Source: an uncultured virus (IMG/VR IMGVR_UViG_3300031951_000033)
Lineage: Duplodnaviria > Heunggongvirae > Uroviricota > Caudoviricetes
Strand: one strand, 5' to 3'
DNA length: 64,000 nt
Virus record (IMG/VR): IMGVR_UViG_3300031951_000033
This document shows, piece after piece, positions 20,617 to 45,707 of the stretch. Positions within the stretch are counted from its first letter, which is position 1. Every line of letters begins with the position of its first letter. The notes under the pieces were generated by a model. The model was not told where the DNA came from. It worked only from the letters and a program-made list of their open reading frames with translations, and did no database searches. The position numbers and the translations under genes are program-made.

Positions 20617-21012
20617 TTAGAGTTTCTCTTCTACGAACTTGCGAAGATTTTCCGGCAAGATACTCTTGTTGATGCCGTTAGATTTGGCAACTTTCATTGC
20701 ACCGGTTTCTGTCTTGCTTACACGAGTTGTTGCCGGCGCATATACTTGTCCACCGTTGAGCTCTTTTGCTTTCTTGAGGTGGTTCATCACCATCGAGCGA
20801 GCATAAGCCATAACCTCGTTAGGGTTGGACTTGTCTTTGCTGTACTCTACGGTGCCGGCCAGAATAGCCTTGCCGATATTTGCCTTTATGGTTTCAAGTG
20901 CTGGCTCGGGCAAACCCGCAAGGGCATTAGTTCCGCCTTGAACGAACGGGACGCTCATCTGGCCATACATTGATACTACTTCATCGATCACTGCTTGCTT
21001 CTGCGACTTCAC
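20617..21012 (-). CDS. divergent member of the 'LRKDxRLNGG' paralog family
   Basis: KSQKQAV...AYARSMVMNHLKKAKELNGG..Y; C-terminal INKSILPENLRK. Confidence 0.7.
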   Translation of the reverse strand: MKSQKQAVIDEVVSMYGQMSVPFVQGGTNALAGLPEPALETIKANIGKAILAGTVEYSKDKSNPNEVMAYARSMVMNHLKKAKELNGGQVYAPATTRVSKTETGAMKVAKSNGINKSILPENLRKFVEEKL

Positions 21013-21026
21013 GTTATCTCCTCCTT

Positions 21027-21323
21027 CTAGTGGTTGTACGCGAATTCTTTTTTAGCCGTATCTGTAACTACGGTTATCTTTATTCTTTCTACGGGCAATA
21101 TCTGCCACTCGTATTCGAGCATCTGCACCTTGTCCTTGAGCCGCAGATCCCTCAAAATGGTCGACAATGCCTTGCATAGCGCGGCATCGTTACCCTTGAC
21201 GCGCAACATCTCTTCGCGGGTCACGAGTTTCTCGAGAGACAAGAAGACGAATATCTCTTCAACTCCGCCCATGAGCTCGGCATATCGCTCAAGACACTCG
21301 ATCTCTGTCTTTAGCTTTGCCAT
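21027..21323 (-). CDS. hypothetical protein
   Basis: 98-aa ORF coupled to the exonuclease gene. Confidence 0.6.
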   Translation of the reverse strand: MAKLKTEIECLERYAELMGGVEEIFVFLSLEKLVTREEMLRVKGNDAALCKALSTILRDLRLKDKVQMLEYEWQILPVERIKITVVTDTAKKEFAYNH

Positions 21324-21895
21324 CAGTACTTTGCCGCCTCTTCAAAACCTTTAATAATATCTATCGTCATCATGACGTCGGATCGAGCATCGTGTGCTCT
21401 GGTATCAAACTGTAGGTCAAGATGCGCAGCTAGCTTCTGCAGTCCTTCGGGCGCATTAGGGTTCAACAGTCCTATGCGCTTAGCGAACATTATAATGGAT
21501 GTAAGATCGTAGAATCTGTATGAAACGAACTGGTTCCACGTATTGGAGTTTAAAAGTTGTTCGTTGATATATCCGATGTCAAAATTGACGTTTTTGCCTA
21601 GCGGGATCAGCTTGTCTTGTCCGCCACCGGAGTGCTTGTAAAGAAAGTCTCTCAGTTTTGCTCCGCCCTCCGAATATGTCATTGCCTTCTTATCATGCTC
21701 TGTCAGGTCTATGCGGTTAACTTCCATAGCTGACATTTTTGCTCGATATATTCCATCGTTGGGCTTAAGAAGCAAATTGAGCTCGTCTAGCATAAAGTAT
21801 TTGTCGTCTAAAACCATGAATGATGCTGTAAGAAGTGACGTTGTCTTGGGGTCTGTGCCGCCCGACTCTACGTCTAAAGCAATAAACTTTGCCAT
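21323..21895 (-). CDS. DEDDh 3'-5' exonuclease (DnaQ-like)
   Basis: IALDVESGG, N..FD, HDARSD. Confidence 0.85.
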   Translation of the reverse strand: MAKFIALDVESGGTDPKTTSLLTASFMVLDDKYFMLDELNLLLKPNDGIYRAKMSAMEVNRIDLTEHDKKAMTYSEGGAKLRDFLYKHSGGGQDKLIPLGKNVNFDIGYINEQLLNSNTWNQFVSYRFYDLTSIIMFAKRIGLLNPNAPEGLQKLAAHLDLQFDTRAHDARSDVMMTIDIIKGFEEAAKY

Positions 21896-21941
21896 AGATT
21901 TTTCTTTCTGCCATTAGGCTTTATTAGATTATACTTCTTAA

Positions 21942-22811
21942 CTACAGATCACGAGGATCTCTGAAGCCGATAAAAACAGGAAATCTGGGTAAGTCTTTCA
22001 TACCGGCCTTCTGATACTTATACTTGAGTATTTTACCTTTATATTGTTCTCTGTCGCTCCACACAGATTTGCGGAACATATCGTCCATGCCGGTAGCAAC
22101 CTTGAACTGCAGACCAGTAGTGATGTCCTGCACCAAGAAAGCACCGAGAGTGTCCATGGGTACAAGATTTGCCTTATGACTGCTTCGCTTTGTGTGGCCG
22201 AGCTCGTCCTTGACGGCTTCGTTGGCATTGTGCAGGCGCTCTTCGAAGTCTAGGATGACTGCTTCAGAGTCTGTGAACCTCTTGATCTTCAGAAGGTAAG
22301 ATTCGCGAACAGTGGATCTGCCGCACTTGTACGGGCTAGAAGGTGCGCGAACCATAACGCCTTCGTAACCCTGGTTGAGACATTGAGTCTCGTAAGCGAG
22401 CAGCTCTTCCGGTGTGCCGATGATCTGCGGCAGCAGCTTGCTGCAGAAGCTGGGTAGCTCAAGTGCGGCCAATGCCTGCATCCTGGTCTCGTACGGCGTC
22501 TTGATATCAGTGACGTAGTCGAACACGACGTAGGTGAAATCTGGCTTGCCGTGCTCGCTCATCACCTGCGATTGAATCTGGTTGAACGTCGCACCGTTAA
22601 CCATGATCTCGCCGTCTAATCCTTTGTGCTGGATGCTAGAGATGGCGCTCTGAATATGAATGTTGGGGATAGCTATGAACTTACGCGACAAGGCAACTGC
22701 ATCAGGTTTAACGCACCTGATGCCGTCTAGTTTGGGACTTGCTAATACGGGATACTTGAGACCGTTGATGTCTTCGCAGGTCTCGGCGAGCATTGGTTTA
22801 CTTATCATCAT
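21942..22811 (-). CDS. ATP-dependent DNA ligase
   Basis: KPMLA, SPKLDGIR, LDGEI, VFD, EGVMVR, LLKIK, RFPVF..FR. Confidence 0.92.
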   Translation of the reverse strand: MMISKPMLAETCEDINGLKYPVLASPKLDGIRCVKPDAVALSRKFIAIPNIHIQSAISSIQHKGLDGEIMVNGATFNQIQSQVMSEHGKPDFTYVVFDYVTDIKTPYETRMQALAALELPSFCSKLLPQIIGTPEELLAYETQCLNQGYEGVMVRAPSSPYKCGRSTVRESYLLKIKRFTDSEAVILDFEERLHNANEAVKDELGHTKRSSHKANLVPMDTLGAFLVQDITTGLQFKVATGMDDMFRKSVWSDREQYKGKILKYKYQKAGMKDLPRFPVFIGFRDPRDL

Positions 22812-22839
22812 GTACGATTATACGATCGGATACAGACGA

Positions 22840-23646
22840 CTAGTAGTAGCGAAGAAATCTAGTGAGGTCCTTGTTGCTGATCACGCAGCCCCAGTGAGTT
22901 CTGTCGTCAGAAGCGAACAGCACACCCACAACGTTGCCGTACCAGTCAACAGCAGGGCTTCCGCTATTGCCGGGGTAAACTACTGCGTTAGTGATGTATA
23001 CGTCGGATATGACGGTGGTGCAGAGTCTTGCTTTTACCTTTCCGAAAGGAGTGGCAAGCATTATCTTCTGTATGCGGTTTTTGGGCTTGTCGCACTTCTC
23101 GTTCCTGGTGTTGAACATGGCGTCCAGCAGGTGGTCGTTTAGCGACATCACGTACTCGGTAAACTGTACTTCTCTTTCGCCCATAACGTCTCCGCGTGAC
23201 ACTGCTAGAGGCATAAGAAGCGGGTGGCCAACGATCGCGATCTCGTCTCCTATGTCTGGAGCTGACGTTACTTTAAGTCCGGTGACACCTGGAAGACCTT
23301 CTATGAGGCAAAGATCCGACTCGTCGGATATATCTATTACCGAGCGTTTGATCAGTGATCCCTTGTCGTCTCTGATCAGAACCTTGTTGTTAGCTGTCTC
23401 TTTTAGTACAGCTTCGCACACGTGCGCGTTGCTAACTATGTAGCTGATACCTGATGGAGCCGTGACAGCAAAGCCGGTACCGCCTCCGCTGTTAGGTGAG
23501 GACTGTATCTTGTATACCTTAGCTTGAACCTTTTTTCTGACATAGTCGCTGTGTACAACTGGCGCCTTCATGGCGAGATACACTAAACATGGGATCAGGA
23601 GCATCGACAGTATTGGTTTAGGGTCAATTTTAGGTACTTTTTTCAT
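22840..23646 (-). CDS. membrane-anchored trypsin-like serine protease
   Basis: N-terminal TM; GTGF, NAHVC, DLCLI, PGNSGSP triad motifs. Confidence 0.85.
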   Translation of the reverse strand: MKKVPKIDPKPILSMLLIPCLVYLAMKAPVVHSDYVRKKVQAKVYKIQSSPNSGGGTGFAVTAPSGISYIVSNAHVCEAVLKETANNKVLIRDDKGSLIKRSVIDISDESDLCLIEGLPGVTGLKVTSAPDIGDEIAIVGHPLLMPLAVSRGDVMGEREVQFTEYVMSLNDHLLDAMFNTRNEKCDKPKNRIQKIMLATPFGKVKARLCTTVISDVYITNAVVYPGNSGSPAVDWYGNVVGVLFASDDRTHWGCVISNKDLTRFLRYY

Positions 23647-23739
23647 TTTGAGTTAGAGGGTTTGACCACGTCCTTGTGGTCTCGCCCTTAGATCATTTTA
23701 CCTTATTACTATAGATAAAATTGTCTTATATTTTTGCAA

Positions 23740-24144
23740 TCATTCAGTTAATTTTTTCGTCTCTTCGGGAGAGTAAGTGTACGGATACATGTCTCTTAGC
23801 GAGATACTCTTCGAGGGCTTAAACAACGGCGTCTCTGAGGCATGAATAAGCCTGTTTATCTCTGCGATATCAAGCATTAAGGTTGTTCTTGTAGGCCGCA
23901 CTTCTCTCTCCATGGCTTGAACCTCTGGCGGTTCGTCTGGCACCTTCGCTGGCGCCTTGCTGTCTATTATGCCTTTCAGCAGCTTCTCTAAGTCCTTGAA
24001 ATTTAAGCCCGGTATGTCGTTACATAGTGCCTGCTTTTTCTCTACGGATTCTAATATTTCTCTGGCCCGCTCTATTTTTTGCTCGCGTTTTAAATAACTT
24101 AGGCCGCTGATGTCTTGAACTTGCTTCTTTACTCTTTTTGACAA
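23740..24144 (-). CDS. hypothetical protein
   Basis: 134-aa ORF with TATAAT upstream. Confidence 0.55.
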   Translation of the reverse strand: MSKRVKKQVQDISGLSYLKREQKIERAREILESVEKKQALCNDIPGLNFKDLEKLLKGIIDSKAPAKVPDEPPEVQAMEREVRPTRTTLMLDIAEINRLIHASETPLFKPSKSISLRDMYPYTYSPEETKKLTE

Positions 24145-24191
24145 AGTAGTCCCCGCTGTAGGTTAATTATATCAGTTAACCCAGCTGTGGA

Positions 24192-24524
24192 CTACTCATC
24201 TGAGGACAGCGTTGACTGTATCTGTTTCTCAAACGACATGTCGTACGATACCGCAGCACACTCTTTGTATATCTTAGAGAAGATCTCATCCTTGAACGCC
24301 TCGTGATTTGAGGTAGCTATGGCGGTGGTAACCTGCAATTTGAGTTCTTGGACATTTTCGTAGGTAGGCTCTTTTATGAAATTGTCGAACGCGGTCTGCA
24401 TAGCGGGCGGGATAGGTATCTTGAAGTGATGCCAGAAATCTAACGCCCCGATAGCGTCCTCAGGCGTTACGGGTATCAGCTTCTCCTTGCTGTTCTCTTG
24501 CTGCGATTCTTCAGAGTTATGCAC
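24192..24524 (-). CDS. hypothetical protein
   Basis: AGGAG SD, 110 aa. Confidence 0.6.
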   Translation of the reverse strand: MHNSEESQQENSKEKLIPVTPEDAIGALDFWHHFKIPIPPAMQTAFDNFIKEPTYENVQELKLQVTTAIATSNHEAFKDEIFSKIYKECAAVSYDMSFEKQIQSTLSSDE

Positions 24525-29816: not shown

Positions 29817-30134
29817 ATGTTAAAAAATGATCTTCCAGAGTTTAACTTTAAAGCTCAACCCCATGAGATGCTGGGGATAGACAAGACCGCTGATCATCGC
29901 ACCATAATGAACGCCTACTGGTCTAAGATGAGCATGTACGACCCGAATTTACATGCAGATAAGCCTAAAGAGCATGTAGATCACTGTAAAAAGATATCGA
30001 CCTATATAAACGGCGCAAAGAACAGCATGCTTAGAAACTTAAGAAAAAGCGATGGCGATGCAAGCGACTCTCTTGTCGAGGTTCTGGCTTGGGCAACCGA
30101 TGAGCTTTATAAACTAAAAAACTATAAGAAATAA
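29817..30134 (+). CDS. degenerate J-domain protein
   Basis: PHEMLGI...AY...YDPN (HPD altered)...INGAK; paralog of the next gene's C-terminus. Confidence 0.65.
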   Translation: MLKNDLPEFNFKAQPHEMLGIDKTADHRTIMNAYWSKMSMYDPNLHADKPKEHVDHCKKISTYINGAKNSMLRNLRKSDGDASDSLVEVLAWATDELYKLKNYKK

Positions 30135-30147
30135 GTGCGAGCAGATT

Positions 30148-31092
30148 ATGGCTAATGTTTACAACACTAACTGGGTAAGACAAGACGAAGAGCTCAAAAA
30201 GAGCTACGAAGACTCCATTAACATTCATCAGCAAACACATGCCGAAATCAAGAACAACGAGAACGCTAGAATTAAAGAGCACGCCGAAGCCTTAAAAGAT
30301 GCTAGTAAGCGCATGGCAGAAAGAATATCTGAGGCGCACCGTTGGCACGCCAAAACTCACGCGGATATAGATCGGCAGCACGCTAACAGCAAAAGAGAGT
30401 TCGAAGAAGGCATGAAGCGTTCGACCAACGACCATCAGAGACGATACCATCAAGATAGATACAATATGTTCCAAGATGCCTTCGCTGAAAGGCGCAAGGA
30501 AGCAGACGGTAACCTCAAGTCAGCAAAAGAGCTTCATGCAGAAGACTTCGGCAGAATAAAGGCTCATCATGACGAAAAGTTGAAAATGTTCGGAGATTAT
30601 TACAAAAACAAGCGCGCGGAGGCAGATGAGCGCCTTAAGTGGGCGAAAGGCTATTACGGCGATAAAAGCAGCTCTTCGCAGCAGAAGCAACAACAGCAGC
30701 AGCAGAGATCTTATCAAGATACCGGCAACAGGCAACAATACCAATCTCAGCAGCAAACTCCTCCGCCAAGACAGCAACCGGTTAAACCTAAAGAAAACAT
30801 GCCAGAGGGTTTTAACTTTAATTTTAACGCAGCTCCACACGAGATGCTGGGGATTAAACCAGGCGCTACAAGATCAGAAGTGATGTCTGGTTACAAGAAT
30901 GCCATGAGGCGCTATCACCCAGACGTTAATCCTGCAGAGCACAGCGCTCTATATACTAGAGCGGCGCAAGCTATCAACGGAGCAAAAGATCGAGCTTTGA
31001 GAGGATTAGCGAAAGCACTTATAGATGCTTTAGTAGAAGCGCTCAACAAGTCTAGAGCAAAGAAAACCAATAACGATCAGTGGTCTATATAA
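30148..31092 (+). CDS. coiled-coil protein with C-terminal J domain
   Basis: PHEMLGI.PGAT..EV...YK..MRRYHPDVN...INGAK; Q-rich linker; LKKS/LAKA/LNKS; ends NNDQWSI. Confidence 0.85.
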   Translation: MANVYNTNWVRQDEELKKSYEDSINIHQQTHAEIKNNENARIKEHAEALKDASKRMAERISEAHRWHAKTHADIDRQHANSKREFEEGMKRSTNDHQRRYHQDRYNMFQDAFAERRKEADGNLKSAKELHAEDFGRIKAHHDEKLKMFGDYYKNKRAEADERLKWAKGYYGDKSSSSQQKQQQQQQRSYQDTGNRQQYQSQQQTPPPRQQPVKPKENMPEGFNFNFNAAPHEMLGIKPGATRSEVMSGYKNAMRRYHPDVNPAEHSALYTRAAQAINGAKDRALRGLAKALIDALVEALNKSRAKKTNNDQWSI

Positions 31093-31150
31093 TAGAACTG
31101 GGGACAGTAACAACGTTACCATCCCCAGTCCGCTCTGATGAAGCAACTTG

Positions 31151-31648
31151 TTATGCGTTAGCGTATTTGTGACGCAGACTCTCTGGAAGAGCGTTGAAAT
31201 CCACTTGAGGTTTCTTTTCAGGAGCAATTTCTGCCATCCTGGTGTTGATAGCTTTTTGTACCTCTTCGATATCTTCGGCAGAAGTTAGAGCGCCAGACGC
31301 CATGAGCTGTCGCAACGCCTTGATCTGAGGATCGGTAGATCCACGGCGACTACCGTTGCTCTGGGCGGGTGTATATTTAACACCACCGTTGAGGCGAGTG
31401 TCTTTGCGCAACCAGTTAGAGATCAAACCGGATACGTAAGTGCGGAGCTTAGAGTCATCGCCGAACTTGGTATTGAGCTCGATCGAACCAGAATTGAAAC
31501 CTTCAACAAGGATGTTTGCCACTTGTTGACGAGCATTTGAGCTCAAGCTCTCTGCTACGGGGGAGTTATCGCTGATCGACTGACCAGACTCGGTTAACAC
31601 GGACTGAATGGCGCTATAAACCGCCTCTTTTTGCTTTTGCTTACTCAT
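31151..31648 (-). CDS. 'LRKDxRLNGG' paralog family protein
   Basis: YVSGLISNWLRKDTRLNGGVKY, DPQIKALRQL, VDFNALPESLRHKY. Confidence 0.85.
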   Translation of the reverse strand: MSKQKQKEAVYSAIQSVLTESGQSISDNSPVAESLSSNARQQVANILVEGFNSGSIELNTKFGDDSKLRTYVSGLISNWLRKDTRLNGGVKYTPAQSNGSRRGSTDPQIKALRQLMASGALTSAEDIEEVQKAINTRMAEIAPEKKPQVDFNALPESLRHKYANA

Positions 31649-32621
31649 AAAATTCCTTTCAGGAATGAGTTAGAACGCAGGTACTTCGCACTTTGCGGCC
31701 ACGGTCTGCGTTCTCACCGTGACTGACGAACAAAATCTCCGTCTTACGTATATGATTATACGATCGGTTTCGGATGTTCAGGTTACGCAGCGTATTTGTC
31801 GTCTTTGACGTAGAGATTCCAGTTCTTGTAGTCTCTAGCTTTTACGCCGATCACTTCTGAGCTAATCTCGTGAAGCATGCCCATACTTGTAGGCAGCATC
31901 CACTTTACGTACATGGTTGTGCCTTCCTCGTTTACGTCGTGAACAGAGACCACCAGTATCATGAGATCAAGAGCATTGCTATGCTTGTACACCTTATGTT
32001 CTATAAACATGCCGTTTTCCTCCGCTGTATTCGTAATATCGGATACGGTCACTTGAAGAGATGTCTCCACCATGATTTGCGCGGTGGTTTCATGTCGTCT
32101 TTTTCGCACCTCAGTTCGATATTCTCTCTCAGAAGTTCTTCGCATGCGTCTCTGTATTTTCTAAGCGCTTTGATGAGTAGTCTTAGATGCGCGCGCCTAG
32201 ACTTGTATCTTCTTTCTTTAGCCAATTTGTTGTTGTGTATGTGCTCTTGTTTAGGTGCACTGTTTACCGCAATGTAAGTAATACCGTTTATAATCAGTTT
32301 ATCCATCACATCTCTCCAGATCCGCCGTATACAAGTCTACCGCAGGCGCAAGAAGGGTTGGTGTATTTTGTGCATCTTGCCGCGGCAACATTTGCAGTTA
32401 TGCAGTAGATCTTGTCTCTGTCTTCTTTTTTTAAGCCGAACGTGTTGAGCGGCAAATTATCTCCGTTATCGTAGCGCTTATGACCCCTGATAACGTCGCA
32501 CGCTTCGCATATACCTTTTGTCTGTGTGTATCTTGTGCCCTTTTTGCCAGTCCATTGACAAGCAGTACTGTGATTTATCTTTTTGCCGTTATGTTCTACG
32601 AGCGGTTTTGCCGCCAGTTGA

Positions 32622-33126: not shown

Positions 33127-33865
33127 TTGCTACCTTTCTTGAAGATTACGTGAGATATGTCAACTCCTTTATACTTTTTGTGTACAGGAATTTTCTTGCA
33201 GTTTGCATCATACAGAAACTGCTCCAAATTCTGGGTCAACTGTATCTGATCTTGTATTTGCTTTTCGTGATCTGTTTCCCTAAACAGAATACCAGTCACA
33301 AAGCCCATAGCAACCAACGAAAAATAAAACGGTATTTGTGCCATAAATCCTCCCTATTTCGAAGTTGTTCCTTCGTCCTTTTTAATAAGAAAAGCGCAGA
33401 ATCCCTCTGCGTCTTGCTCAAAATAAGAAACGCTAAGCCACTCTCTTTTGTTTATCTTTAAGTTAGAGAGTGAGCGCTCGCACTCTTTGCGAAGAGTACA
33501 GTCGTCATTTGAGCAAAAAGTTTGATCAAAGTTAGTCACTTTAACAGCTCTTCTTTACGCGATTCAACCCATTCTGCCCAACTGAACGGAGTCATGTCGC
33601 TGTCTACCTCTTCGTTGAAAAGGTACGCCTCTTTAGCTTTTAGCGCTTCTACGGCGGCATAGAACCCGATCTCTTTGGCATTTTTAACCATAGAGTCAAG
33701 CGTCAGCTTAGGTATCCTCAGAACACTGTCAGGATCAGTTAGAAACTTGCTCATAAGCTCGATTCTCCTTTCTTTCCCGCTGGGAATGAGGGGATTATAC
33801 TAAAAGATGCTACATCTTGAGCCAAACTTAGTAAAGCCTGACTCAAGATGTCAGCAATTTATGCA

Positions 33866-34378
33866 TCACTGCGCACTCACTGCGACCTGCGCTGCAAATT
33901 TTTCGCGCAGAGACTCTGGGAGTGCATCGAAGTTAACGGAGATGCTGGGGCGCTTCGCCTTGACGATCTCTGCTTGACGATTGGCAATGAAGGTATTGAT
34001 CTCTTCGATACCGGCAGGATCTGTGACCTGGCCAGATGCGAGAAGCGCTTTCATCGCCTTGATCTGTGGATCAGTAGAGCGGGTAGAACCGGTCTTGCTT
34101 GGGGTGTATGCTGCGCCGCCGTTAAGACGCTTGTCTTTACGGAGCCAGTTGGACACAAGACCGCTTGCGTAAGCGGAAATCTTGCTGTCGTCGAATATCT
34201 TGTTGAGCTCGATGGTGCCAGCCTTGAAGCCGTCAACAAGAGTCTTAACAACTGCTTCGCGTTGGGTTTTAGTGATCATCTCTGCTGCGTTAGAGCCTTC
34301 TGTGAAGGTTCCACCGTTTGTTTCGATGACTGTCTTTACGGCATTGAATACCGCTTCTTTTTGGTTTTGTTTAGACAT
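33866..34378 (-). CDS. 'LRKDxRLNGG' paralog family protein
   Basis: YASGLVSNWLRKDKRLNGG, DPQIKAMKAL, VNFDALPESLREKF. Confidence 0.85.
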   Translation of the reverse strand: MSKQNQKEAVFNAVKTVIETNGGTFTEGSNAAEMITKTQREAVVKTLVDGFKAGTIELNKIFDDSKISAYASGLVSNWLRKDKRLNGGAAYTPSKTGSTRSTDPQIKAMKALLASGQVTDPAGIEEINTFIANRQAEIVKAKRPSISVNFDALPESLREKFAAQVAVSAQ

Positions 34379-34450
34379 AATGCCTCCTTATAGGTTTGTC
34401 TAACTGATTGATGGGCACATATAATATCGGCTCGAGTTTCGCTCAGCCGA

Positions 34451-36049: not shown

Positions 36050-36246
36050 TATAATATCGGATACGGTTAACGGCCCTTGTGGCCAACAAACAGAAGGGCT
36101 TGCAAAAACATCAATAATTTCAGATGCCTAAGCGTCATGGGAGGAGCTTGATTTGATAGGATCTTGCCCAGATCTGCGCTCATGCGTATATTCTATCAGC
36201 GTTTGCAGCGTAGCGGTGTCAGCCGCCGCGAAGCAGCTGACACTCG

Positions 36247-38827: not shown

Positions 38828-39382
38828 ATGGCTCTATCCCTTAAAGCACGTAATCGCTTCATTGCAGCGATGGCTCGTCGCGCAGAAGCAGTAGAAATAC
38901 TGGATGCAATCGAAGGACCTCAGCTTGATACCCTCGACGGGTATGTTGCAGGTACTCAAGGATCGGTTTCTGCTGTGGCGGCTACCGACTCTATCATTCA
39001 AGGCCTTCAGAAGTTGGACGGCAACAAGCCGAACTATGTTGAAGCTACCTTCTCTGCTACCTTCAGCAACAGCATCGGTGCTCTCACCGTAGTTGTTCGC
39101 AAGATGGGTAAGATGGTGATGCTCGAGATCCCAGTCGGCTCTGCTACTCTCGCTGCTGCAACCATCGCTTCTGGCGCCACTGACGTGCCAGCAGCTTATC
39201 GTCCTGCTGTAGCTACCACGATCCCTATCGTTATCACCAACAACGGTGTTCGCGCTATGGGCCAAGCAGTGATCTCTGCCGCTGGACAGATCACCATCTC
39301 TGTATTGGGTGCTAACTTCAGCATTGGGACCGGCGGATTCGACCGCTGCTCTCTCAGCTATTCTGCTTCTACTCTCGCTTAA
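38828..39382 (+). CDS. virion fibre/decoration-like protein
   Basis: VRKMGKMVMLEI...PAAYRPA...G.A.I.AAG.I beta-sandwich pattern; strong SD; own terminator. Confidence 0.6.
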   Translation: MALSLKARNRFIAAMARRAEAVEILDAIEGPQLDTLDGYVAGTQGSVSAVAATDSIIQGLQKLDGNKPNYVEATFSATFSNSIGALTVVVRKMGKMVMLEIPVGSATLAAATIASGATDVPAAYRPAVATTIPIVITNNGVRAMGQAVISAAGQITISVLGANFSIGTGGFDRCSLSYSASTLA

Positions 39383-40926: not shown

Positions 40927-41624
40927 AGGACTAGTTCTCCTCTCTAACATATATAAAAGGCCCTACTTTAACATCTAACACCTATACTTACCTAGACCTA
41001 GAGAAGATACTAGATACCCTAGGAGAAGATGTACTGCTAGAGCTTGATATACTCACCCTCAAACCCTCTATAAAGGGTCTAAAAGAGAGTCTAGCAAGCC
41101 CTAGAATCACACCCAGACATATAATATCGGATACAGGGCAGCGAGTGTAAGTGCTTGATATTGCAGGGACAAGTAGAGCAAAACCCAGAGGGTGGCCACG
41201 CACACTAACCTGACTAAGTCGGCTATTCCGCTTATTCCCGCTCAAAATCGGCTAAGCTCACTTAACATTTAAGCGGCGCCCAGAGTCGGTTCCTTTCCCT
41301 TCCCCTAGGGGGAAATCGGGTGTGTCTCTTCCCCTAGGGAGCTTGGAGATAGTCTGTTGCCCTAGGGCCTTACTGCAAATGAAAGATGGGGGATATCGGA
41401 GGGATTCGCTGCAGGTTTTCCCCTAGGGGACAGCAGGATGTCGGTATGCTGGATCTCTCCCGGCGTAGCGGTGTCGGAAGACGCGCAGGAGTCGGTAACG
41501 CTCTAGGGATGTCGAAATGCCGGTGTTGTTTTTGTCGGACGATGTCGTCGATAATGTCGGATGCGCTGGCGGTCGGGCGTAGCAGTGTCGGCAGGCAGCG
41601 CCTACCGACAGGCCTTGAGGGAAA

Positions 41625-41870
41625 TCAGTACTCGGCCACGTTGTCGTAGTCCTCGTAGTCAGGCTCGGGATAGTCTTCCTCGTACTCCTCGCCGTAGTCG
41701 TCCTCCTGCTCCTGGTGCCAAGCGTCCTCTGCCTGGCAGCGGTAGCAGTACATGCCGGTCTGGGGATCCGGGTGATACTCTTTGCCGCACTGCTGGCACT
41801 CAACAGTGGTATTGAAGTCGATGCAGCCTTCGGGGCCGCAGCCGCAGCATGGGTAGTCTTCGTGTCTCAT
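41625..41870 (-). CDS. Cys-rich acidic early protein
   Basis: EDYPCCGCG, CQQC, CYRC; AAGGAG SD. Confidence 0.7.
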   Translation of the reverse strand: MRHEDYPCCGCGPEGCIDFNTTVECQQCGKEYHPDPQTGMYCYRCQAEDAWHQEQEDDYGEEYEEDYPEPDYEDYDNVAEY

Positions 41871-41955
41871 AGGCTATTGTCTCCTTGTTGGGGTTGTACG
41901 GAAGCGGGTTTTAAGGCTGGCCAGGCGAGCAGTACCCGCCTGGCCGAGACGCTTG

Positions 41956-42423: not shown

Positions 42424-42655
42424 AGTGTTTGCTTTCTAGCCAAGTTGTTAGAGCAGGCTCTATTGCTTGCTTGGTTGCTTGGCTTTTGTTATATAAACAC
42501 ATAATGTCGGTTTGAGTCGCTGCCGAAAGGCAAACCAGAGTAGTAAAGTCGGTGGAGCCCGCAGCGGGTGCAGTCGGCTGGGCGTAGCAGTGTCGGTAGC
42601 ACCCGACCAAAGGCGACCCAGGACCGAAGTCCCGGATCGCCCACCCGAGGAGAAC

Positions 42656-42892
42656 TCAGAACAGAGATCGGATCTTGTTGTAGGCGCGCTTGAACGCGTT
42701 CTTGATCATTACCTCGAGCCAGCCGTCTTTCTGCGGGCCGTAGCTGCGTTCGCTGTACGCTATCATCATGGCGTCGCGCCACATCTGGTCCTTGTGTAGC
42801 CGATCACCGATAGCCTTCGCGTGGATGTCGGCTTTGATACGCTCGGCGTACTGGTCTACCGGCGTGTAGTAGTCGTAATCGTCGTGTCTCAC
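42656..42892 (-). CDS. hypothetical early protein
   Basis: AAGGAG SD; MRHDDY start resembles 41625..41870. Confidence 0.6.
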   Translation of the reverse strand: MRHDDYDYYTPVDQYAERIKADIHAKAIGDRLHKDQMWRDAMMIAYSERSYGPQKDGWLEVMIKNAFKRAYNKIRSLF

Positions 42893-42923
42893 GTGCTTCT
42901 CCTTTGTCTATATTATACGGATC

Positions 42924-43082
42924 TCATTTCAGCTGCTGGCGAACACCGTCGTCTACCAGCTTGTACCAGCTGTTGTAGAAGTCCCGCTCGTGGTCGAGCA
43001 GTTCCAGGTCCAGGATGGACTCGATGTAGGTGAGCAGCTTGTCTACTTGTTCTTCGGTCATGGTGATGCTGAATGTTGTCAT
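42924..43082 (-). CDS. 52-aa acidic protein (paralog A), absent from the ORF track
   Basis: AAAGGAG SD; MTTFSITMTEEQVDKLLTYIES...QQLK*. Confidence 0.75.
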   Translation of the reverse strand: MTTFSITMTEEQVDKLLTYIESILDLELLDHERDFYNSWYKLVDDGVRQQLK

Positions 43083-43133
43083 GGTTGTTCTCCTTTGGTT
43101 TGGTTATAGCGCCGACTGCTTCCTCTGCGCAGT

Positions 43134-43295
43134 CTATTGCTTCATTTGCTGGTGAATCTGATTGCTAAGCTCGTCGTACAGCTCTTGATAAAATCCCTGC
43201 TCTTCGGGTGTGTCGCAAAGCTCTATCATCGACTCGACGTGAGTGAAGATCTTGTCTATCTGATCTGCGGTCATGGTGATGCTGAATGTCGTCAT
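43134..43295 (-). CDS. 53-aa acidic protein (paralog B), absent from the ORF track
   Basis: AAAGGAG SD; MTTFSITMTADQIDKIFTHVES...QQMKQ*. Confidence 0.75.
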   Translation of the reverse strand: MTTFSITMTADQIDKIFTHVESMIELCDTPEEQGFYQELYDELSNQIHQQMKQ

Positions 43296-43719
43296 CGTTT
43301 TCTCCTTTGTTGAGTTTATGTGTTGTCGGTTGTGGCTGGCCGCAGAGATAGCATCCCCGCGGCCAGCATGAAAGTTAGTTCCAGAGTCGAGACTTTAAAT
43401 TCCATGAATCGGCGACAAGCAAGGAGCTAAGGTCGTCCTCGCGGTCTAACTTGAGCAACAGCTCACTGAGCTCGATATCGAGCTCTTTATAGCCTTCTAG
43501 CTTCGGGTTGTTGTAGAACTCCAAACGCTGGTCTTCCAGCATCTCAAAGAGGTCTTTCATGCGTTCTCCTGTTGGTTGGCGTTCAGCTGTGTGTTAGATC
43601 ACAGCTGTATGATTAAAAATATTAAGATAACTTAACTTTTCAATCATATTATCAAATAATGTCGGTTGCAGTCGCTAGGCGTAGCAGTGTCAGCCGACTT
43701 GCGCCAGCTGACACTCGGT

Positions 43720-43980
43720 CTAATTGGCCAGCTTGGCCTTAGCGCCAAACAGCTCGTTCAGCTTGTCGACCAGCGGCTGCTCTGCTTCCATGAACAGGTA
43801 GTCGTAGTCGTCGGTGCTGAAGAACATGCGGTAGCATGGCTCTTCGAACTGTCCGTGGCAGAGCTCGAAGATGACTCCGTCGAAGTTTTTGCAGTTGTGT
43901 GGCTCCAACAGCTCGCTGTGCATCAGGATCTGCATGGCGGGCTCAGTGACTTGGTCTCTACGTGGTATCAGTGTTGTCAT
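43720..43980 (-). CDS. hypothetical early protein
   Basis: AAAAGGAG SD. Confidence 0.65.
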   Translation of the reverse strand: MTTLIPRRDQVTEPAMQILMHSELLEPHNCKNFDGVIFELCHGQFEEPCYRMFFSTDDYDYLFMEAEQPLVDKLNELFGAKAKLAN

Positions 43981-44427
43981 GGTTTCTCCTTTTTCTCGAC
44001 CTGCTCAGGAGACAACCAGAGATACGGTGGTCTCTACGCCGTATTCAGCAAGGAACTCGCTGAGCAGATTGTTCTGAACTGTCGGGTCGTTTATAGCGGA
44101 ATAGATGTGGTTGTATATCACTGAGCCAGCCACGGTGCTGATCAGTCTGTGCGCTAGTTGGTCAGGGGTTTGTCCAGTAATGTCCATCAGGATCTCTAAG
44201 TTATCCATTGCTTCTCCTCGTTGGTAAATCATTGTTGCAAGTTGCGGGGTTATGAAAGTTGCCCGCCGCAGTCTTGCAAAACCGCAGCGGGCGAACCACC
44301 AACAACGTTGACCACCTAACAACATGGTCAACGACCAACAACTTGTTGACAATCACGTCGTGATCATCATGTTGTTTGATCGAATCGGATTTGGCCGGAG
44401 CACCGAAGTGCCCCGGCCACACCGCTG

Positions 44428-44889
44428 TTAGCGGCTGTACTTGGCGCGCAGCGCTTCAGGCAGAGCGCTGTAGTCAACCGTTACCTGAGGCTTGAGCTCA
44501 TCTTGCCGCTTGGAGATGGCCGCTTCGATCTCGGCGATGTCCTCGGGGCTGGTCACTGCGCCAGAGGCGAGGAGCGATCTCAGCGCCTTGAGCTGGGCAT
44601 CACCTGCACCCTGGCGAGAGCCAGGATTCTTGGCGATGTACTCAGTGCCGCCGTTGAGGCGCTTGTCCTTGCGGACGTGGTTGTTCACCAGTCCGGGGAC
44701 ATACTTGCGGAGCCACTCGGGGTTGCGCTTGTTCTCGTCAGAGAGCTGGATGTTCCCGCTCATGAAACCCTCGGTGAGGATTGCCATGATCTCGTTGAGG
44801 TGGGGCTTCACCTCGCTCCAGTCATAGGACTCTTGTTGACCCATTACGGTTGTTACTGCGGCCACTACTGCATCACTTTGCTTCATCAT
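44428..44889 (-). CDS. 'LRKDxRLNGG' paralog family protein
   Basis: YVPGLVNNHVRKDKRLNGG; VDYSALPEALRAKY. Confidence 0.85.
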   Translation of the reverse strand: MMKQSDAVVAAVTTVMGQQESYDWSEVKPHLNEIMAILTEGFMSGNIQLSDENKRNPEWLRKYVPGLVNNHVRKDKRLNGGTEYIAKNPGSRQGAGDAQLKALRSLLASGAVTSPEDIAEIEAAISKRQDELKPQVTVDYSALPEALRAKYSR

Positions 44890-45245
44890 AACTACTCCTT
44901 TGTAGTTGGTTTGTTCATGACTACACATGTAGTCGGTCTAACGATCAAAAAATTAAAGTTATTTAACTTTTTAATCATGTTGTTAGATAAAGTCGGTTCT
45001 AGCCGACCGGGCGTAGCAGTGTCAGGCAGCTGATGCCACCTGACAAGTAATGCTATCTTATGCTGCTGAGCATCACCACTATCTGGGTGAAGACGTAAGC
45101 CGCGCCGCAGACGATGATCAAGCAGTAGCCGTAGTAGATGTTCGTAGTCATTGTGTTTCTCCTTGTTGTTGTACTGCGTTGTAATACAATGTGTTGCCGG
45201 ATGAAGCGGCCGGAGCACAGCGTACCCCGGCCGACACCGCTACAG

Positions 45246-45707
45246 TTACTTGCCGAACTTAGCTCTCAGTGCCGCTGGCAGAGAGTCGTAGTCGACCTCG
45301 ACCTTGGGCTGCAGCTCAGCTTGGCGCTGAGCGATCGCAGCCTCGACCTCGGCGAGGTCGCTAGGCGAGGTGACCGCACCGCTCGCGATCAGAGCTCGCA
45401 GAGCCTTGAGCTGCGCATCGCCTGCTCCTTGGCGAGAGCCAGGATTCTTGGCGACATACTCGGTGCCACCGTTCAGCCGCTTGTCCTTTCGGACATGGTT
45501 GTTAATCAGACCTGGAACGTAGGACTTGATGTACTCTGGATTCCGCTTGCTCTCGTCGGAGAGTTGGACTTCTCCAGAGAGGAATCCTTCGGTCACTACC
45601 GCGATGATCTCGGAGAGGTGGGGTTTCACCTCGCTCCAGGCATAAGACTCACGGTTTCCCATCACTGCGGTTACTGCGGCTACAACACAATCAGACTGCT
45701 TCATCAT
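45246..45707 (-). CDS. 'LRKDxRLNGG' paralog family protein
   Basis: YVPGLINNHVRKDKRLNGG; VDYDSLPAALRAKF; close duplicate of 44428..44889. Confidence 0.85.
   Translation of the reverse strand: MMKQSDCVVAAVTAVMGNRESYAWSEVKPHLSEIIAVVTEGFLSGEVQLSDESKRNPEYIKSYVPGLINNHVRKDKRLNGGTEYVAKNPGSRQGAGDAQLKALRALIASGAVTSPSDLAEVEAAIAQRQAELQPKVEVDYDSLPAALRAKFGK

What the first reader, a model, noticed from the sequence alone, without database searches (positions are those of the whole stretch)
20617..45707. Six-copy dispersed paralog family (GLxxNxxRKDxRLNGG), possibly degenerate sigma-like factors
Seen: six 130-170-aa paralogs spanning a range of divergence (44428 and 45246 are recent duplicates; 20617 is remote). 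Most have their own promoter motif and a downstream hairpin, and show strongly biased codons. The core DSKLRTYVSGLISNWLRK loosely parallels ECF sigma region 2.3-2.4 (DSxFxTWLxxIxxNxxxDxxRK). Inference: an amplified early family acting as sigma mimics, anti-sigmas or anti-defence proteins, retained for dosage or host range. The sigma resemblance is by eye only.
Basis: partly seen in the sequence, partly recalled or inferred. Interest (0 to 1): 0.8.

Follow-up and report, generated by a model that had tools for sequence, protein, structure and literature searches.

The report
Abundant multi-copy phage protein with shared tail
Six copies of an unnamed phage gene family are real, are tuned for very high expression and are not sigma factors, and they end in a short tail that several unrelated proteins of the same phages also carry, which suggests that all of these proteins dock on one common partner.

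Summary
Six minus-strand paralogs share 19 invariant columns. Five of the six have an upstream CCGAY-NN-TAT element and a strong hairpin after the stop. All six rank among the 9 least rare-codon-using of 89 window ORFs.

The sigma resemblance fails. The Pfam Sigma70_r2 model misses the six paralogs, is not among the 25 of 26 weak families shown for 53 members, and misses every copy in five related genomes, although it finds real sigma genes elsewhere in two.

The family is large and unnamed (894 clusters at 50% identity) and virus-only in the nearest Atlas clusters. It has 4-5 matches in each related 147-177 kb myovirus. One old syntenic copy lies beside DNA ligase.

Two confident models show a three-helix domain with only weak winged-helix-like neighbours (Z up to 5.8), a linker and a short tail helix.

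New here: the tail, φDxSALPxxLRxKF, is portable. It also occurs on small acidic proteins with a SutA-like RNA-polymerase-binding core, on a conserved late-block protein and on others.

Best guess: an abundant, probably nucleic-acid-associated host-takeover protein that docks by a shared tail. The partner is unknown.

The parts
20617..21012 (-). Remote 'core' paralog (131 aa): N-domain, disordered linker and tail helix, with no helical hairpin. It is followed directly by tRNA-Met.
   Evidence: E 1.5e-43. It groups with L059 and L061 (support 99). It lies in the conserved order ligase - exonuclease - orf98 - this gene - AAA ATPase. Model.
31151..31648 (-). Paralog, 165 aa
   Evidence: E 3.8e-77. 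Sister of the 33866 copy (support 94).
33866..34378 (-). Paralog, 170 aa
41956..42423 (-). Paralog, 155 aa. This is the modelled copy: N-domain 1-83, loop 84-96, helices 97-107 and 114-131, tail helix 146-152.
   Evidence: AF2 mean pLDDT 88.3. Groups with three copies of L016 (support 99).
44428..44928 (-). Paralog. The longest ORF is 166 aa; the likely start is the MMKQ codon at 44889 (153 aa).
   Evidence: 77% identical to the 45246 copy.
45246..45779 (-). Paralog. The longest ORF is 177 aa; the likely start is the MMKQ codon at 45707 (153 aa).
31758..31767 (-). Promoter-like element CCGATCGTAT, upstream of the 31151 copy
34421..34430 (-). Promoter-like element CCGATATTAT, upstream of the 33866 copy
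42501..42510 (-). Promoter-like element CCGACATTAT, upstream of the 41956 copy
44987..44996 (-). Promoter-like element CCGACTTTAT, upstream of the 44428 copy
45818..45827 (-). Promoter-like element CCGACTTTAT, upstream of the 45246 copy
31095..31131 (-). 17-pair hairpin after the stop of the 31151 copy
33798..33865 (-). Hairpin after the stop of the 33866 copy (core 33812-33851, 18 pairs)
   Evidence: dG -31.2 against a shuffle mean of -10.7.
41902..41954 (-). GC-rich hairpin after the stop of the 41956 copy
   Evidence: dG -26.6 against a shuffle mean of -14.8.
44386..44424 (-). GC-rich hairpin after the stop of the 44428 copy
   Evidence: dG -27.2 against a shuffle mean of -14.3.
45192..45244 (-). 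GC-rich hairpin after the stop of the 45246 copy
   Evidence: dG -28.1 against a shuffle mean of -19.3.
14454..14768 (-). Unrelated 104-aa protein that carries the same tail (coded at 14499-14570), followed by an acidic end. Its N-terminus (coded at 14682-14783) holds a SutA-RBD-like core, EFLARGGSI.
9924..10496 (-). Unrelated protein (190-aa ORF; likely start near 10451) whose C-terminus carries the same tail (coded at 9927-9998). Its homologs in G001 and G002 lack the tail.
   Evidence: hhalign E 1.8e-5, tail only. (26.0 bits)..
21027..21323 (-). orf98, the conserved upstream neighbour of the core copy
   Evidence: Upstream of a family member in 10 loci. tblastn finds it in 9 related loci.

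Best explanation
The six genes encode an abundant phage protein of the non-structural promoter class, amplified for dosage.

Each protein has three parts. The first is a compact three-helix N-terminal domain whose invariant polar residues (N, K, N-G-G, Y) cluster at the end of helix 3 and the turn after it. The second is an optional helical hairpin. The third is a flexible linker ending in a short helix, φ(D/N)x(S/N/D)ALPxxL(R/K)xK(F/Y).

I infer that the N-domain binds nucleic acid or a nucleoprotein target, and that the tail is a portable docking peptide. The same peptide sits on a few unrelated proteins of these phages, including a small acidic protein with a SutA-like core for binding RNA polymerase. 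All of them would therefore be brought to one common partner. My first choice for that partner is the host transcription machinery on DNA, as part of host takeover by phages in which I found no RNA polymerase gene.

Shown: the family, its copy number, its expression signals, its codon tuning, the domain layout and the portability of the tail. Inferred: nucleic-acid binding, docking, and the identity of the partner.
For: Family and size:
- 19 invariant columns across the six paralogs.
- 862 homologs with E<=0.001 among 921 candidates.
- 894 clusters at 50% identity with E<=0.001.
- The three nearest Atlas clusters are 92-100% viral.

Dosage:
- 4-5 matches in 5 of 5 related genomes.
- Copies cluster by genome in the tree, for example L016 x3, L029 x3, L011 x3 and the two window pairs.
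- Rare-codon ranks are 1, 2, 4, 5, 6 and 9 of 89 in the window. In G002 three copies rank 4, 6 and 15 of 146, beside the major head protein (rank 3) and the sheath (rank 7).

Expression class:
- CCGAY-NN-TAT has 23 sites, 21 on the minus strand, and precedes 5 of 6 copies as well as enzyme genes.
- In G002, CTGAAAC(T/C)A has 13 sites against 3.0 expected, 12 on the minus strand. It precedes two family genes and the SutA-like gene, and no plus-strand structural gene.

Structure:
- Two independent AF2 models give the same N-domain, with block pLDDT of 89-97 over its three long helices.
- In the second model the linker is disordered (residues 97-113, pLDDT below 50) and the tail is a separate helix.
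- The best neighbours are winged-helix or three-helix nucleic-acid binders: E2F-DP Z 5.8, rmsd 3.8 over 67 residues; L11 Z 4.9. At least 12 entries recur in both lists.

Tail portability:
- The strict motif occurs 7 times in window ORFs against 0.015 in shuffles. Two of the seven are in unrelated proteins.
- A tail-only profile scores the non-family carriers in the window, G001, G002 and G004 at 8.4-27.1 bits, against a best shuffled score of 5.5.
- 13 of 15 loci encoding SutA-RBD-like proteins keep the tail.
- Orthologs of the 190-aa carrier lack it.

RNAP link:
- PF20661 is hit in 5 of 10 proteins scanned (8 tail carriers and 2 other window proteins) and in 13 of 16 further proteins.
- The aligned core EEFLARGGkI matches SutA's EEFLSRGGKV. 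Its F-L-x-x-G-G-x-V spacing is that of the interface residues F74, L75, G78, G79 and V81 named in passages of PMC9300723.
- Pfam finds no RNAP, sigma or clamp among the 150 largest ORFs of G002.
Against: - No family, fold or motif match reaches significance for the N-domain. All Z values are below 6, and the tool warns that values under about 8 can be a common arrangement.
- The proteins are not strongly basic: pI is 6.7-9.5.
- The SutA-RBD matches are all below Pfam's cut-off: 0 of 16, at 14.4-24.8 bits against 29.3. They cover only the second half of the model.
- The match to the solved SutA chain has E 0.6 and ranks 3 of 4.
- The same Pfam model also gives weak hits in 7 of 14 control genomes.
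- Nothing shows that the tail binds RNAP. A tail profile finds no comparable peptide in solved chains, SutA included.
- One tail carrier is a conserved gene of the late head/tail block, which fits a virion role better.
- MCP-like abundance is more than a typical RNAP-binding factor needs.
- Two relatives (G003 and G005) do encode sigma-like proteins, so host RNAP may be redirected in other ways.
Confidence: 0.35

Rival explanations
1. Packaged internal (ejected) proteins. The tail would be a capsid-targeting peptide that loads the abundant family, the SutA-like RNAP binder and a late-block protein into the prohead for injection with the DNA. This parallels T4's internal proteins and Alt, which share one capsid targeting sequence.
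For: - One short motif sits on otherwise unrelated proteins.
- Codon tuning is MCP-like and there are several gene copies, as expected for hundreds of molecules per capsid.
- One carrier is a conserved gene inside the head/tail block of G001, G002 and G004.
- Passages of PMC3012670, section 6, describe T-even internal proteins as diverse proteins that share only a capsid targeting sequence, with about 1000 molecules per head.
- Recurrent turnover of copies fits a family that meets host defences.
Against: - The family genes and the SutA-like gene use the promoter-like class of the small-ORF block, not anything shared with the head or sheath genes.
- The portal, prohead protease, putative scaffold and major head protein of G002 carry no such tail: all score below 0 bits (valid L064 rows only).
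- The T4 signal is N-terminal (recalled), whereas this one is C-terminal.
- The old core copy sits among ligase, exonuclease and AAA genes.
Confidence: 0.2
2. Self-assembling scaffold. The family's own N-domain would be the receptor of the tail. The proteins would then polymerise head-to-tail, perhaps on DNA, and recruit the few other tail carriers, among them the RNAP-binding protein.
For: - LPxxL of the tail is at least 90% conserved in 53 family members.
- The family is by far the commonest carrier.
- The most conserved surface of the N-domain is a polar patch with no assigned ligand.
- The linker is disordered, as tethered binding motifs usually are.
- 8 of 15 loci encoding the SutA-like carrier lie in contigs known to hold the family.
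Against: - There is no direct evidence.
- A clade of short forms keeps the N-domain alone and stops at ...RFN, with no tail.
- Two G001 copies match the profile only up to position 136-137 of 153, so they seem to lack the tail.
- The co-occurrence test is uninformative because the other 7 contigs are fragments.
Confidence: 0.15
3. Anti-defence or other host-takeover binders. The N-domain would neutralise an abundant host protein or sequester a small molecule, and copy turnover would reflect an arms race.
For: - The genes lie in a block of small unknown ORFs, each with its own promoter-like element.
- Duplicates are repeatedly lineage-specific.
- Expression signals are very strong.
Against: - No PADLOC hit at E<=1.
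- The family is present with 4-5 matches in all 5 relatives checked, and has an invariant motif across deep divergence. That looks like purifying selection on a constant target, not diversification.
- One copy is a syntenic core gene.
Confidence: 0.15
4. One reading: degenerate sigma-like factors, homologous to ECF sigma region 2.3-2.4, that direct core RNAP to the CCGAY promoters.
For:
- The promoter-like element is compact and looks -10-only.
- T4 gp55 is a small, very divergent sigma with a C-terminal docking tail (recalled, not tested here).
Against: - Sigma70_r2 gives no match at E<=1 in the six paralogs and is not among the 25 of 26 weak families shown for 53 members.
- It matches none of the family copies in five genomes, where it does find true sigma-like genes (83.9 and 29.1 bits) elsewhere.
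- A profile of the family finds no solved chain at E<=10.
- The family genes themselves sit behind the element, so the first round of transcription cannot depend on their products unless these are injected.
- Codon tuning and copy number point to stoichiometric amounts.
Confidence: 0.03

Closest known systems
T4 internal proteins IPI-III and Alt with their capsid targeting sequence (PMC3012670, section 6, passages read)
   Same: Small, abundant proteins in several paralogous or unrelated forms that share only one short terminal address peptide. One T4 carrier of that address (Alt) acts on host RNA polymerase (recalled). The genes lie outside the head gene cluster (recalled).
   Different: The address here is C-terminal and helical; in T4 it is N-terminal and cleaved (recalled). 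There is no sequence or fold relation. The promoter-like class is that of the non-structural block. Presence in virions is untested.
T4 gp33, gp55 and gp43 C-terminal sliding-clamp-binding tails (recalled from the T4 literature; no paper read here)
   Same: One short C-terminal tail is shared by RNAP-associated small proteins and by other proteins, and docks them all on a common hub.
   Different: Pfam found no clamp gene among the 150 largest ORFs of G002. The phage Pol III alpha does not carry the tail. The motif does not resemble the clamp-binding consensus as I recall it.
Pseudomonas aeruginosa SutA (PMC9300723; PDB 7f0r, 7xl3, 7xl4)
   Same: This applies to the tail-carrying 104-aa protein, not to the six-copy family. 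It is a small protein with the core EFLxRGGx(I/V), which matches the spacing of SutA's interface residues F74, L75, G78, G79 and V81 on the RNAP beta protrusion. It also has a long D/E-rich disordered end.
   Different: All matches are below the Pfam cut-off and cover only half of the domain. The acidic region is C-terminal; in SutA it is N-terminal. SutA's own sequence does not match the tail profile.
Winged-helix and three-helix nucleic-acid-binding domains (E2F-DP 1cf7_B, L11 1aci_A, PKMT WH 5doo_A, DpnI 4esj_A, MCM WH 2ma3, histone H5 1hst_A)
   Same: Three helices packed with a small sheet. These are the top structural neighbours of both models.
   Different: Z is only 3.7-5.8 and identity 3-16%. 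The loop between helices 2 and 3 is 12 residues long, so this is not a classical helix-turn-helix. DNA binding is untested.
ECF sigma factor region 2 (Pfam PF04542)
   Different: No profile match. No region 4 hit in the six paralogs at E<=1. No sigma factor chain in the listed rows of the fold searches.

Membership tests
Sigma-70 / ECF sigma factors | Sequence match to the region 2 model (PF04542) at or above its cut-off of 24 bits | tested here: not met
   No hit at E<=1 in the six paralogs. PF04542 is not among the 25 of 26 families shown for 53 members. A six-frame scan of five relatives finds 83.9-bit and 29.1-bit matches at other loci and nothing at any family copy.
Sigma-70 / ECF sigma factors | A region 4 (-35 recognition) domain | tested here: not met
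   No Sigma70_r4 hit at E<=1 in the six paralogs. It is not among the families shown for 53 members. The C-terminal half is a two-helix hairpin plus a tail helix.
Sigma-70 / ECF sigma factors | The sigma-2 fold | tested here: inconclusive
   No sigma factor chain appears among the rows listed for two models by Foldseek and VIA-align. A family that is not listed is not thereby excluded.
Sigma-70 / ECF sigma factors | Binds core RNAP and confers promoter specificity | not testable with these tools
Winged-helix DNA-binding domains | H1-S1-H2-H3-S2-S3 topology with structural similarity well above background | tested here: inconclusive
   The top neighbours of both models are winged-helix-like, but Z is at most 5.8. 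The loop between H2 and H3 is 12 residues long.
SutA-RBD (PF20661), for the tail-carrying 104-aa protein and its relatives | Score at or above the Pfam cut-off of 29.3 bits | tested here: not met
   0 of 16 proteins reach it (14.4-24.8 bits). The best of the earlier set is 25.9 bits. 0 of 5 genomes have a match over the cut-off.
SutA-RBD (PF20661), for the tail-carrying 104-aa protein and its relatives | The interface residue pattern F74, L75, G78, G79, V81, I84 of SutA | tested here: met
   EEFLARGGkI aligns with SutA's EEFLSRGGKV. The residues are named in passages of PMC9300723. The consensus of 10 phage proteins is.
SutA-RBD (PF20661), for the tail-carrying 104-aa protein and its relatives | Binding to the RNAP beta protrusion | not testable with these tools
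T4-type internal proteins with a capsid targeting sequence | One short address peptide shared by otherwise unrelated proteins | tested here: met
   7 strict motif hits against 0.015 expected. Non-family carriers score 8.4-27.1 bits against a shuffled maximum of 5.5.
T4-type internal proteins with a capsid targeting sequence | Address at the N-terminus, removed by the prohead protease | tested here: not met
   The motif lies at or near the C-terminus in every carrier. Cleavage cannot be tested.
T4-type internal proteins with a capsid targeting sequence | Present inside virions | not testable with these tools
   No cultured relative was found, so no proteome is available.
Clamp-docking tails of the T4 late transcription type | A phage sliding clamp, and a replicative polymerase that carries the same tail | tested here: not met
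   No clamp family among the 150 largest ORFs of G002 at E<=1e-5. Neither the regex scan nor the tail profile hits the Pol III alpha ORF.

The most novel reading that the evidence does not exclude
The C-terminal peptide φDxSALPxxLRxKF is an addressing system specific to this clade of large freshwater myoviruses. It would deliver a set of unrelated phage proteins to one receptor: the MCP-level abundant three-helix family, a SutA-like wedge for the RNAP beta protrusion, and a late-block protein. If the receptor is host RNA polymerase, or the family's own N-domain assembled on DNA, this would be a new modular way of taking over host transcription. An abundant phage-built platform would recruit RNAP through a borrowed SutA-type anchor, in phages in which I found no polymerase gene of their own.
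Probability: 0.2. Interest if true: 0.85.

Novelty: new variant of a known kind. Interest (0 to 1): 0.6.

Why it matters
This is one of the larger unnamed virus-only protein families: 894 clusters at 50% identity. It is tuned like a major capsid protein and kept at 4-6 copies per genome in a clade of 147-177 kb uncultured myoviruses. Even so, no library names it and no solved fold resembles it convincingly.

The portable tail turns an opaque 'hypothetical protein' into a testable problem, because one peptide can be used as bait to find the common partner. The partner would show whether these phages run a shared address system for capsid loading, as T4 does, or for docking on the host transcription machinery. 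The latter is hinted at by the tail's presence on proteins with a SutA-like RNA-polymerase-binding core.

It also shows that the sigma-like reading, attractive by eye, does not survive a profile test.

Tried and rejected
**No hits for the family**
- Pfam, PHROGs, NCBIfam and PADLOC on the six paralogs: nothing significant.
- Pfam over 53 members at E<=1: the commonest families are EACC1 (8 of 53, best E 0.009) and CcFV1_CP (7 of 53). Both are sub-threshold and I did not pursue them.
- Family profile against PDB sequences: 0 hits at E<=10.
- Foldseek against PDB for both models: no hit at E<=0.001.
- Foldseek against BFVD: only one uncharacterised family member, A0A6J5KXM4.
- No sigma factor chain appears in the listed rows of any fold search.
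- GenBank phages: no DNA match and no tblastn match with three different members.
- The closest cultured phage by tail sheath is Myxococcus phage Mx1, at 32% identity. It has no family member.

**Fusions**
- The 'longer' search gave only P0271. Only its first ~100 residues match, and the rest looks like out-of-frame read-through.
- P0153 and P0188 carry Gly-rich N-terminal extensions; P0153 has a KGG repeat (PF10685, 31.4 bits). I judged these uninformative.

**Jobs that gave no answer**
- Self-association job with two copies: no verdict, score 0.00. It counts neither way.
- RNA runs: no RNA holder listed.
- Homolog search for the 104-aa carrier: only 3 hits.

**Other dead ends**
- Tail profile against PDB: no meaningful hit.
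- Single SutA-like proteins and the full-length profile A3 do not reach the SutA chain.
- Co-occurrence of SutA-like carriers with the family: uninformative, because 7 of 15 contigs are fragments.
- The window's CCGAY element is not enriched in G002: 8 sites against about 9 expected.
- No shared upstream element of the plus-strand genes was seen by eye.
- A recalled scaffolding-protein C-terminal motif could not be verified. One search gave a single hit, which was OCR noise, so I dropped it.
- A literature search for RLNGG gave 9 papers, none of whose listed titles or abstracts concerns a phage protein.
- The search of earlier findings returned one unrelated note and nothing for this genome.

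**My errors**
- In some searches I used locus offsets that were wrong by 1 kb for the rows taken from L065, L067, L068 and L069. These are the sheath, ligase and 377-aa rows, and the 526-aa and two ClpP rows. I ignore those rows. One search repeats the ranking with correct coordinates.
- In one search the count of 'family ORFs' (227) was inflated by overlapping frames, and I do not use it.
- In one search the fourth G002 copy was represented by an antisense ORF from my crude gene caller, so only three G002 ranks are quoted.

Full report
**1.

They align with 19 invariant columns and a mean column identity of 51%. A profile of the six, run over all 754 six-frame ORFs of the window, scores them at E 4e-77 to 1.5e-43, and the next hit is at 5e-4.

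The 44428 and 45246 copies are 77% identical and are sisters in the tree (support 100). The 31151 and 33866 copies are also sisters (support 94). The 20617 copy is only 22% identical to the 31151 copy. For the last two genes the likely starts are the MMKQ codons at 44889 and 45707.

**2. Expression signals**

Five of the six genes have CCGAY-N-(T/G)TAT upstream.
- CCGAYNTTAT occurs 12 times against 0.69 expected, all on the minus strand.
- ACCGAYNNTAT occurs 11 times against 0.48 expected.
- The relaxed form has 23 sites, 21 on the minus strand. Most lie a few tens of bases upstream of minus-strand genes, including the ligase, an ATPase and a metallopeptidase.

The element is therefore the general promoter-like signal of the non-structural block. 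It is not a mark of the family.

Five of the six genes are followed at once by a long GC-rich hairpin. Four have dG of -26.6 to -31.2 against shuffle means of -10.7 to -19.3. The fifth is a 17-pair stem from the terminator scan. Only two have a partial T-run. The remote copy has neither signal and is followed by tRNA-Met.

Codon bias is strong. By the share of ATA, AGA, AGG, TTT, TTA and CTA among Ile, Arg, Phe and Leu codons, the six genes rank 1, 2, 4, 5, 6 and 9 of 89 window ORFs (0.03-0.09 against a non-family median of 0.38). The tail sheath ranks 11. Even their small-ORF neighbours differ from them: ATA 0.27 against 0.04, AGA 0.40 against 0.07.

In the relative G002, three family genes rank 4, 6 and 15 of 146 ORFs, beside the major head protein (3) and the sheath (7). 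The fourth copy was not ranked, because my gene caller took its antisense ORF. The family is therefore tuned like the most abundant phage proteins.

**3. What kind of genome this is**

The window carries:
- a tail sheath, ribonucleotide reductase, ATP-dependent DNA ligase, thymidylate synthase and a ClpP-like protease;
- Hsp20 and two J-domain proteins;
- two tRNAs.

No whole genome is held for it. It has no DNA match in GenBank phages. By sheath protein the nearest cultured phage is Myxococcus phage Mx1, at 32% identity, and Mx1 has no family member.

Related uncultured contigs of 147-177 kb exist. Annotation of the 150 largest ORFs of one of them (G002) shows a PolC/DnaE-type Pol III alpha with a fused exonuclease, RecA, an SbcC-like protein, a chaperonin, Clp proteases, a FlgM-like protein and nucleotide enzymes. 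Pfam at E<=1e-5 finds no RNA polymerase, sigma factor or sliding clamp there.

**4. The family at large**

- One paralog finds 862 proteins with E<=0.001 among 921 candidates. Every name given by a source is 'hypothetical protein', and none has a Pfam domain on record.
- An exhaustive profile search finds 894 clusters at 50% identity with E<=0.001, 614 at 1e-10 and 211 at 1e-30. In the 150 listed it is nearly always a stand-alone protein of about 150-170 residues.
- The three nearest Atlas clusters are unnamed and 92-100% viral.
- Pfam, PHROGs, NCBIfam and PADLOC give nothing significant.

**5. Copy number and history**

All 5 related large genomes searched have 4-5 matches, all on one strand. 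Many of the 61 loci hold 2-5 copies a few kb apart.

In a tree of 87 distinct sequences, copies from one contig are usually each other's nearest relatives. Examples are L016 x3, L029 x3, L011 x3, L001 x2, L042 x2, L026 x2, L037 x2 and both window pairs. This means repeated duplication within genomes, or gene conversion.

The remote 20617 copy is the exception. It groups with L059 and L061 (support 99) inside a clade of 14 rows. Members of that clade sit in a conserved order: (trypsin-like protease) - DNA ligase - (exonuclease) - orf98 - family member - AAA ATPase. Nine related loci show at least part of this order, with ligase identities of 25-49%. So there is an old core copy beside DNA-metabolism genes, plus younger expansions in the small-ORF block. 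The long copies have no constant neighbour.

**6. Structure**

AlphaFold2 with a 53-row alignment gives mean pLDDT 88.3 and pTM 0.59 for the 41956 protein. Its parts are:
- helices 4-15, 28-43 and 56-73 with small bridges at residues 2, 23, 47 and 78 (N-domain, block pLDDT 88-98);
- a loop at 84-96 that holds KNPGSRxG;
- helices 97-107 and 114-131;
- a tail helix at 146-152.

A second, independent model of the remote copy, made with its own subfamily alignment, gives the same N-domain (helices 4-16, 36-52 and 64-81; block pLDDT 89-97 over the three long helices). It then has a disordered linker (97-113, pLDDT below 50) and a separate tail helix at 121-130.

Foldseek finds no solved relative at E<=0.001 for either model. 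In the viral library it finds only one uncharacterised family member.

VIA-align over 48,161 chains gives weak hits to the N-domain:
- E2F-DP 1cf7_B: Z 5.8, rmsd 3.8 over 67 residues for the second model; Z 4.7 for the first.
- L11 RNA-binding domain: Z 4.9 and 4.0.
- PKMT winged helix: Z 4.8 and 4.9.
- Others include BEN domains, DpnI, MCM-WH, forkhead, a kleisin WH and histone H5.

At least 12 entries recur in both lists. All are below the Z of about 8 that the tool treats as meaningful. 'Winged-helix-like' is therefore a lead, not a classification.

The invariant residues across 26 deeply divergent rows are Q4, V8, Y70, N77, K81, N86, G87 and G88 in 20617 numbering. They cluster at the end of helix 3 and the turn after it. 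The proteins' pI values are 6.7-9.5.

**7. The sigma idea fails**

- Sigma70_r2 gives no match at E<=1 in the six paralogs, and it is not among the 25 of 26 weak families shown for 53 members.
- Run in six frames over five related genomes, the same model finds genuine matches in G005 (83.9 bits, in a 231-aa frame) and G003 (29.1 bits). Both lie far from the family copies, and no family copy matches.
- The family profile hits no solved chain by sequence.
- MCP-like codon tuning and 4-6 copies also argue against a regulatory factor.

**8. A portable tail (new observation)**

The two weak extra hits turned out to share only the family's C-terminal tail. The window protein at 9924-10496 ends in ...VDYDALPANLRAKYQQKV (hhalign E 1.8e-5, tail columns only). 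The protein at 14454-14768 holds ...IDFSALPDFIREKY... ahead of an acidic end.

The evidence that the tail is a separate, portable motif is as follows.
- The strict motif LP..[LIVM]R.K[FY] occurs 7 times in the window's ORFs against 0.015 in residue shuffles. It is always at or near a C-terminus and always has the same φDφxALP lead-in.
- A tail-only profile run over the window and three whole relatives scores the non-family carriers at 8.4-27.1 bits, against a best shuffled score of 5.5. Those carriers are two small proteins in G001, one in G002, the two window proteins, and a conserved late-block protein.
- The late-block protein has two tail copies in G002 (380 aa), one in G004 (450 aa) and a degenerate one in G001 (389 aa). 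It lies among the head and tail genes.
- Homologs of the 190-aa window protein in G001 and G002 lack the tail, so it is gained and lost like a short linear motif.
- Within the family, L, P and L of LPxxL are at least 90% conserved in 53 rows. The remote copy keeps the tail although it has lost the helical hairpin.
- A clade of short forms stops at ...RFN, keeping the N-domain alone.
- An alignment of 28 tails gives the consensus φ(D/N)x(S/N/D)ALPxxL(R/K)xK(F/Y).
- No solved chain has a comparable peptide.

**9. What the other carriers are**

The small carriers form a second conserved family. Its layout is KxETIxEFLARGGxIxxxP, then ...EADL(F/Y)YGE, a basic stretch, the tail, and usually a D/E-rich end. 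The tail is present in 13 of 15 loci, which is 10 of 12 distinct sequences.

Its N-terminal segment matches Pfam SutA-RBD (PF20661):
- in 5 of 10 proteins scanned (8 tail carriers and 2 other window proteins), best 25.9 bits;
- in 13 of 16 further proteins;
- in 5 of 5 genomes.

Every match is below the 29.3-bit cut-off and covers only profile positions 14-33 of 35. The model also gives weak hits in 7 of 14 control genomes.

A profile of this segment reaches the solved SutA chain at E 0.6, rank 3 of 4. It aligns EEFLARGGkI with EEFLSRGGKV. By spacing these match F74, L75, G78, G79 and V81. Passages of PMC9300723 name those residues as SutA's contacts with the RNAP beta protrusion, and substituting them impaired a two-hybrid interaction. 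The Atlas lists a virus-only cluster named for this domain near the window protein, at a score of 0.81, which is a lead only.

I rate RNAP binding by these small proteins as plausible but unproven. Formal membership in PF20661 is not met.

**10. Regulation in a relative**

G002 lacks the window's element (8 sites against about 9 expected). It has CTGAAAC(T/C)A instead: 13 sites against 3.0 expected, 12 on the minus strand, all between 86 and 123 kb. These sites precede two family genes, the SutA-like gene and other small genes, and none precedes a plus-strand structural gene.

The family and the SutA-like carrier are thus one promoter-like class, apart from the head genes. I could not establish timing directly, because no RNA run holds the stretch.

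**11. Reading**

What is shown: an abundant, amplified, virus-only protein with a novel-looking three-helix domain and a tethered, portable C-terminal helix.

What is inferred: the tail docks its carriers on one partner.

I place host transcription complexes first (0.35). The reasons are that one carrier family has a SutA-like RNAP anchor, that these genes share a non-structural promoter-like class, and that I found no polymerase gene in G002.

The rivals are these:
- **Packaged internal proteins, as in T4 (0.2).** This is supported by abundance, by copy turnover, by the late-block carrier and by the T4 precedent. It is weakened by the promoter class and by the lack of the tail on the portal, protease, putative scaffold and major head protein (valid rows).
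- **Self-assembly, with the N-domain as the tail's receptor (0.15).**
- **Anti-defence or other host-takeover binding (0.15).**
- **Sigma homology (0.03).**

The remainder is left for readings I have not thought of.

**12. Limits**

- The host is unknown and no cultured relative exists.
- All fold matches are weak.
- The SutA link is sub-threshold.
- The one complex job gave no verdict.
- Statements about T4 gp33, gp55 and gp43 tails, about Alt, and about the position of the T4 targeting sequence are recalled, not read here.
- No supplementary files were consulted.

Noticed in passing
window 41576-41589, 42581-42594, 43678-43691, 45010-45023 (exact); 41462-41475 and 36207-36220 (1-2 mismatches); all on the minus strand: The repeat GACACTGCTACGCC occurs 6 times (up to 2 mismatches) against 0.35 expected. 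Three exact copies lie 13-16 nt upstream of CCGAC promoter-like elements, and two exact copies lie upstream of family genes. It may be an upstream promoter element or an operator.
   Followed up: partly
window 14454-14768 (-); relatives L103-L116: A conserved family of small phage proteins with a SutA-like RNAP-binding core (EFLARGGxI), a basic stretch, the shared tail and an acidic end. All Pfam scores are below the cut-off.
   Followed up: yes
window 15731-15806 (-) tRNA-Ile(TAT); 20536-20609 (-) tRNA-Met: The phage carries a tRNA that reads ATA. ATA makes up 55% of Ile codons in the plus-strand structural genes but only 4% in the family. The structural genes may lean on the phage tRNA, while the family is tuned to the host pool.
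   Followed up: partly
window 38828-39382 (+): A 184-aa plus-strand gene inside the minus-strand block ranks 3 of 89 ORFs for avoiding rare codons, so it is probably very highly expressed too. It has no Pfam or PHROG hit.
   Followed up: no
window 7894-8268 (-), 14837-15658 (+), 22840-23646 (-), 29817-30134 (+), 30148-31092 (+), 10573-11985 (-): An unusually rich set of proteostasis genes: Hsp20, a ClpP-like protease, a trypsin-like protease, two J-domain proteins (one below the Pfam cut-off), and a DUF2201 metallopeptidase/VWA protein. G002 adds a chaperonin and a subtilase.
   Followed up: no
L068:4654-5451 (+) in G002; window 8849-9892 (-): G002 encodes a 265-aa protein with a FlgM anti-sigma-28 domain (36.5 bits, over the cut-off of 25) fused to DUF6321. 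The window's 347-aa DUF6321 protein showed no FlgM hit at E<=0.001.
   Followed up: no
L100 (G005:34860-35069, +) and L101 (G003:149177-149287, +): Two relatives encode proteins that match Sigma70_r2 over the cut-off (83.9 and 29.1 bits), so some phages of this clade have a sigma-like gene of their own, unrelated to the family.
   Followed up: no
L051-L058, e.g. L051:3387-3695 (+): A clade of short family members (about 85-100 aa) stops at ...NNWLKKDPRFN, at the first residue of the NGG motif. They have a conserved downstream neighbour of unknown function in 9 loci.
   Followed up: partly
P0153, P0188 (database proteins): Two family members carry a long Gly-rich, disordered N-terminal extension. 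P0153 has a KGG stress-protein repeat (PF10685, 31.4 bits).
   Followed up: partly
window 57606, 63371 and 27922 (+ gene starts): Several plus-strand genes have a TATAAT-like hexamer only 5-10 nt before the ATG, and two have ACTTTATA(A/G)G about 20 nt upstream. This may indicate leaderless or very short-leader late transcripts. Seen by eye only.
   Followed up: no
window 41625-41870 (-): Just downstream of the 41956 copy lies an 81-aa Cys-rich ORF (CxxC pairs) with a very acidic, Tyr-rich C-terminal half. No Pfam hit.
   Followed up: no
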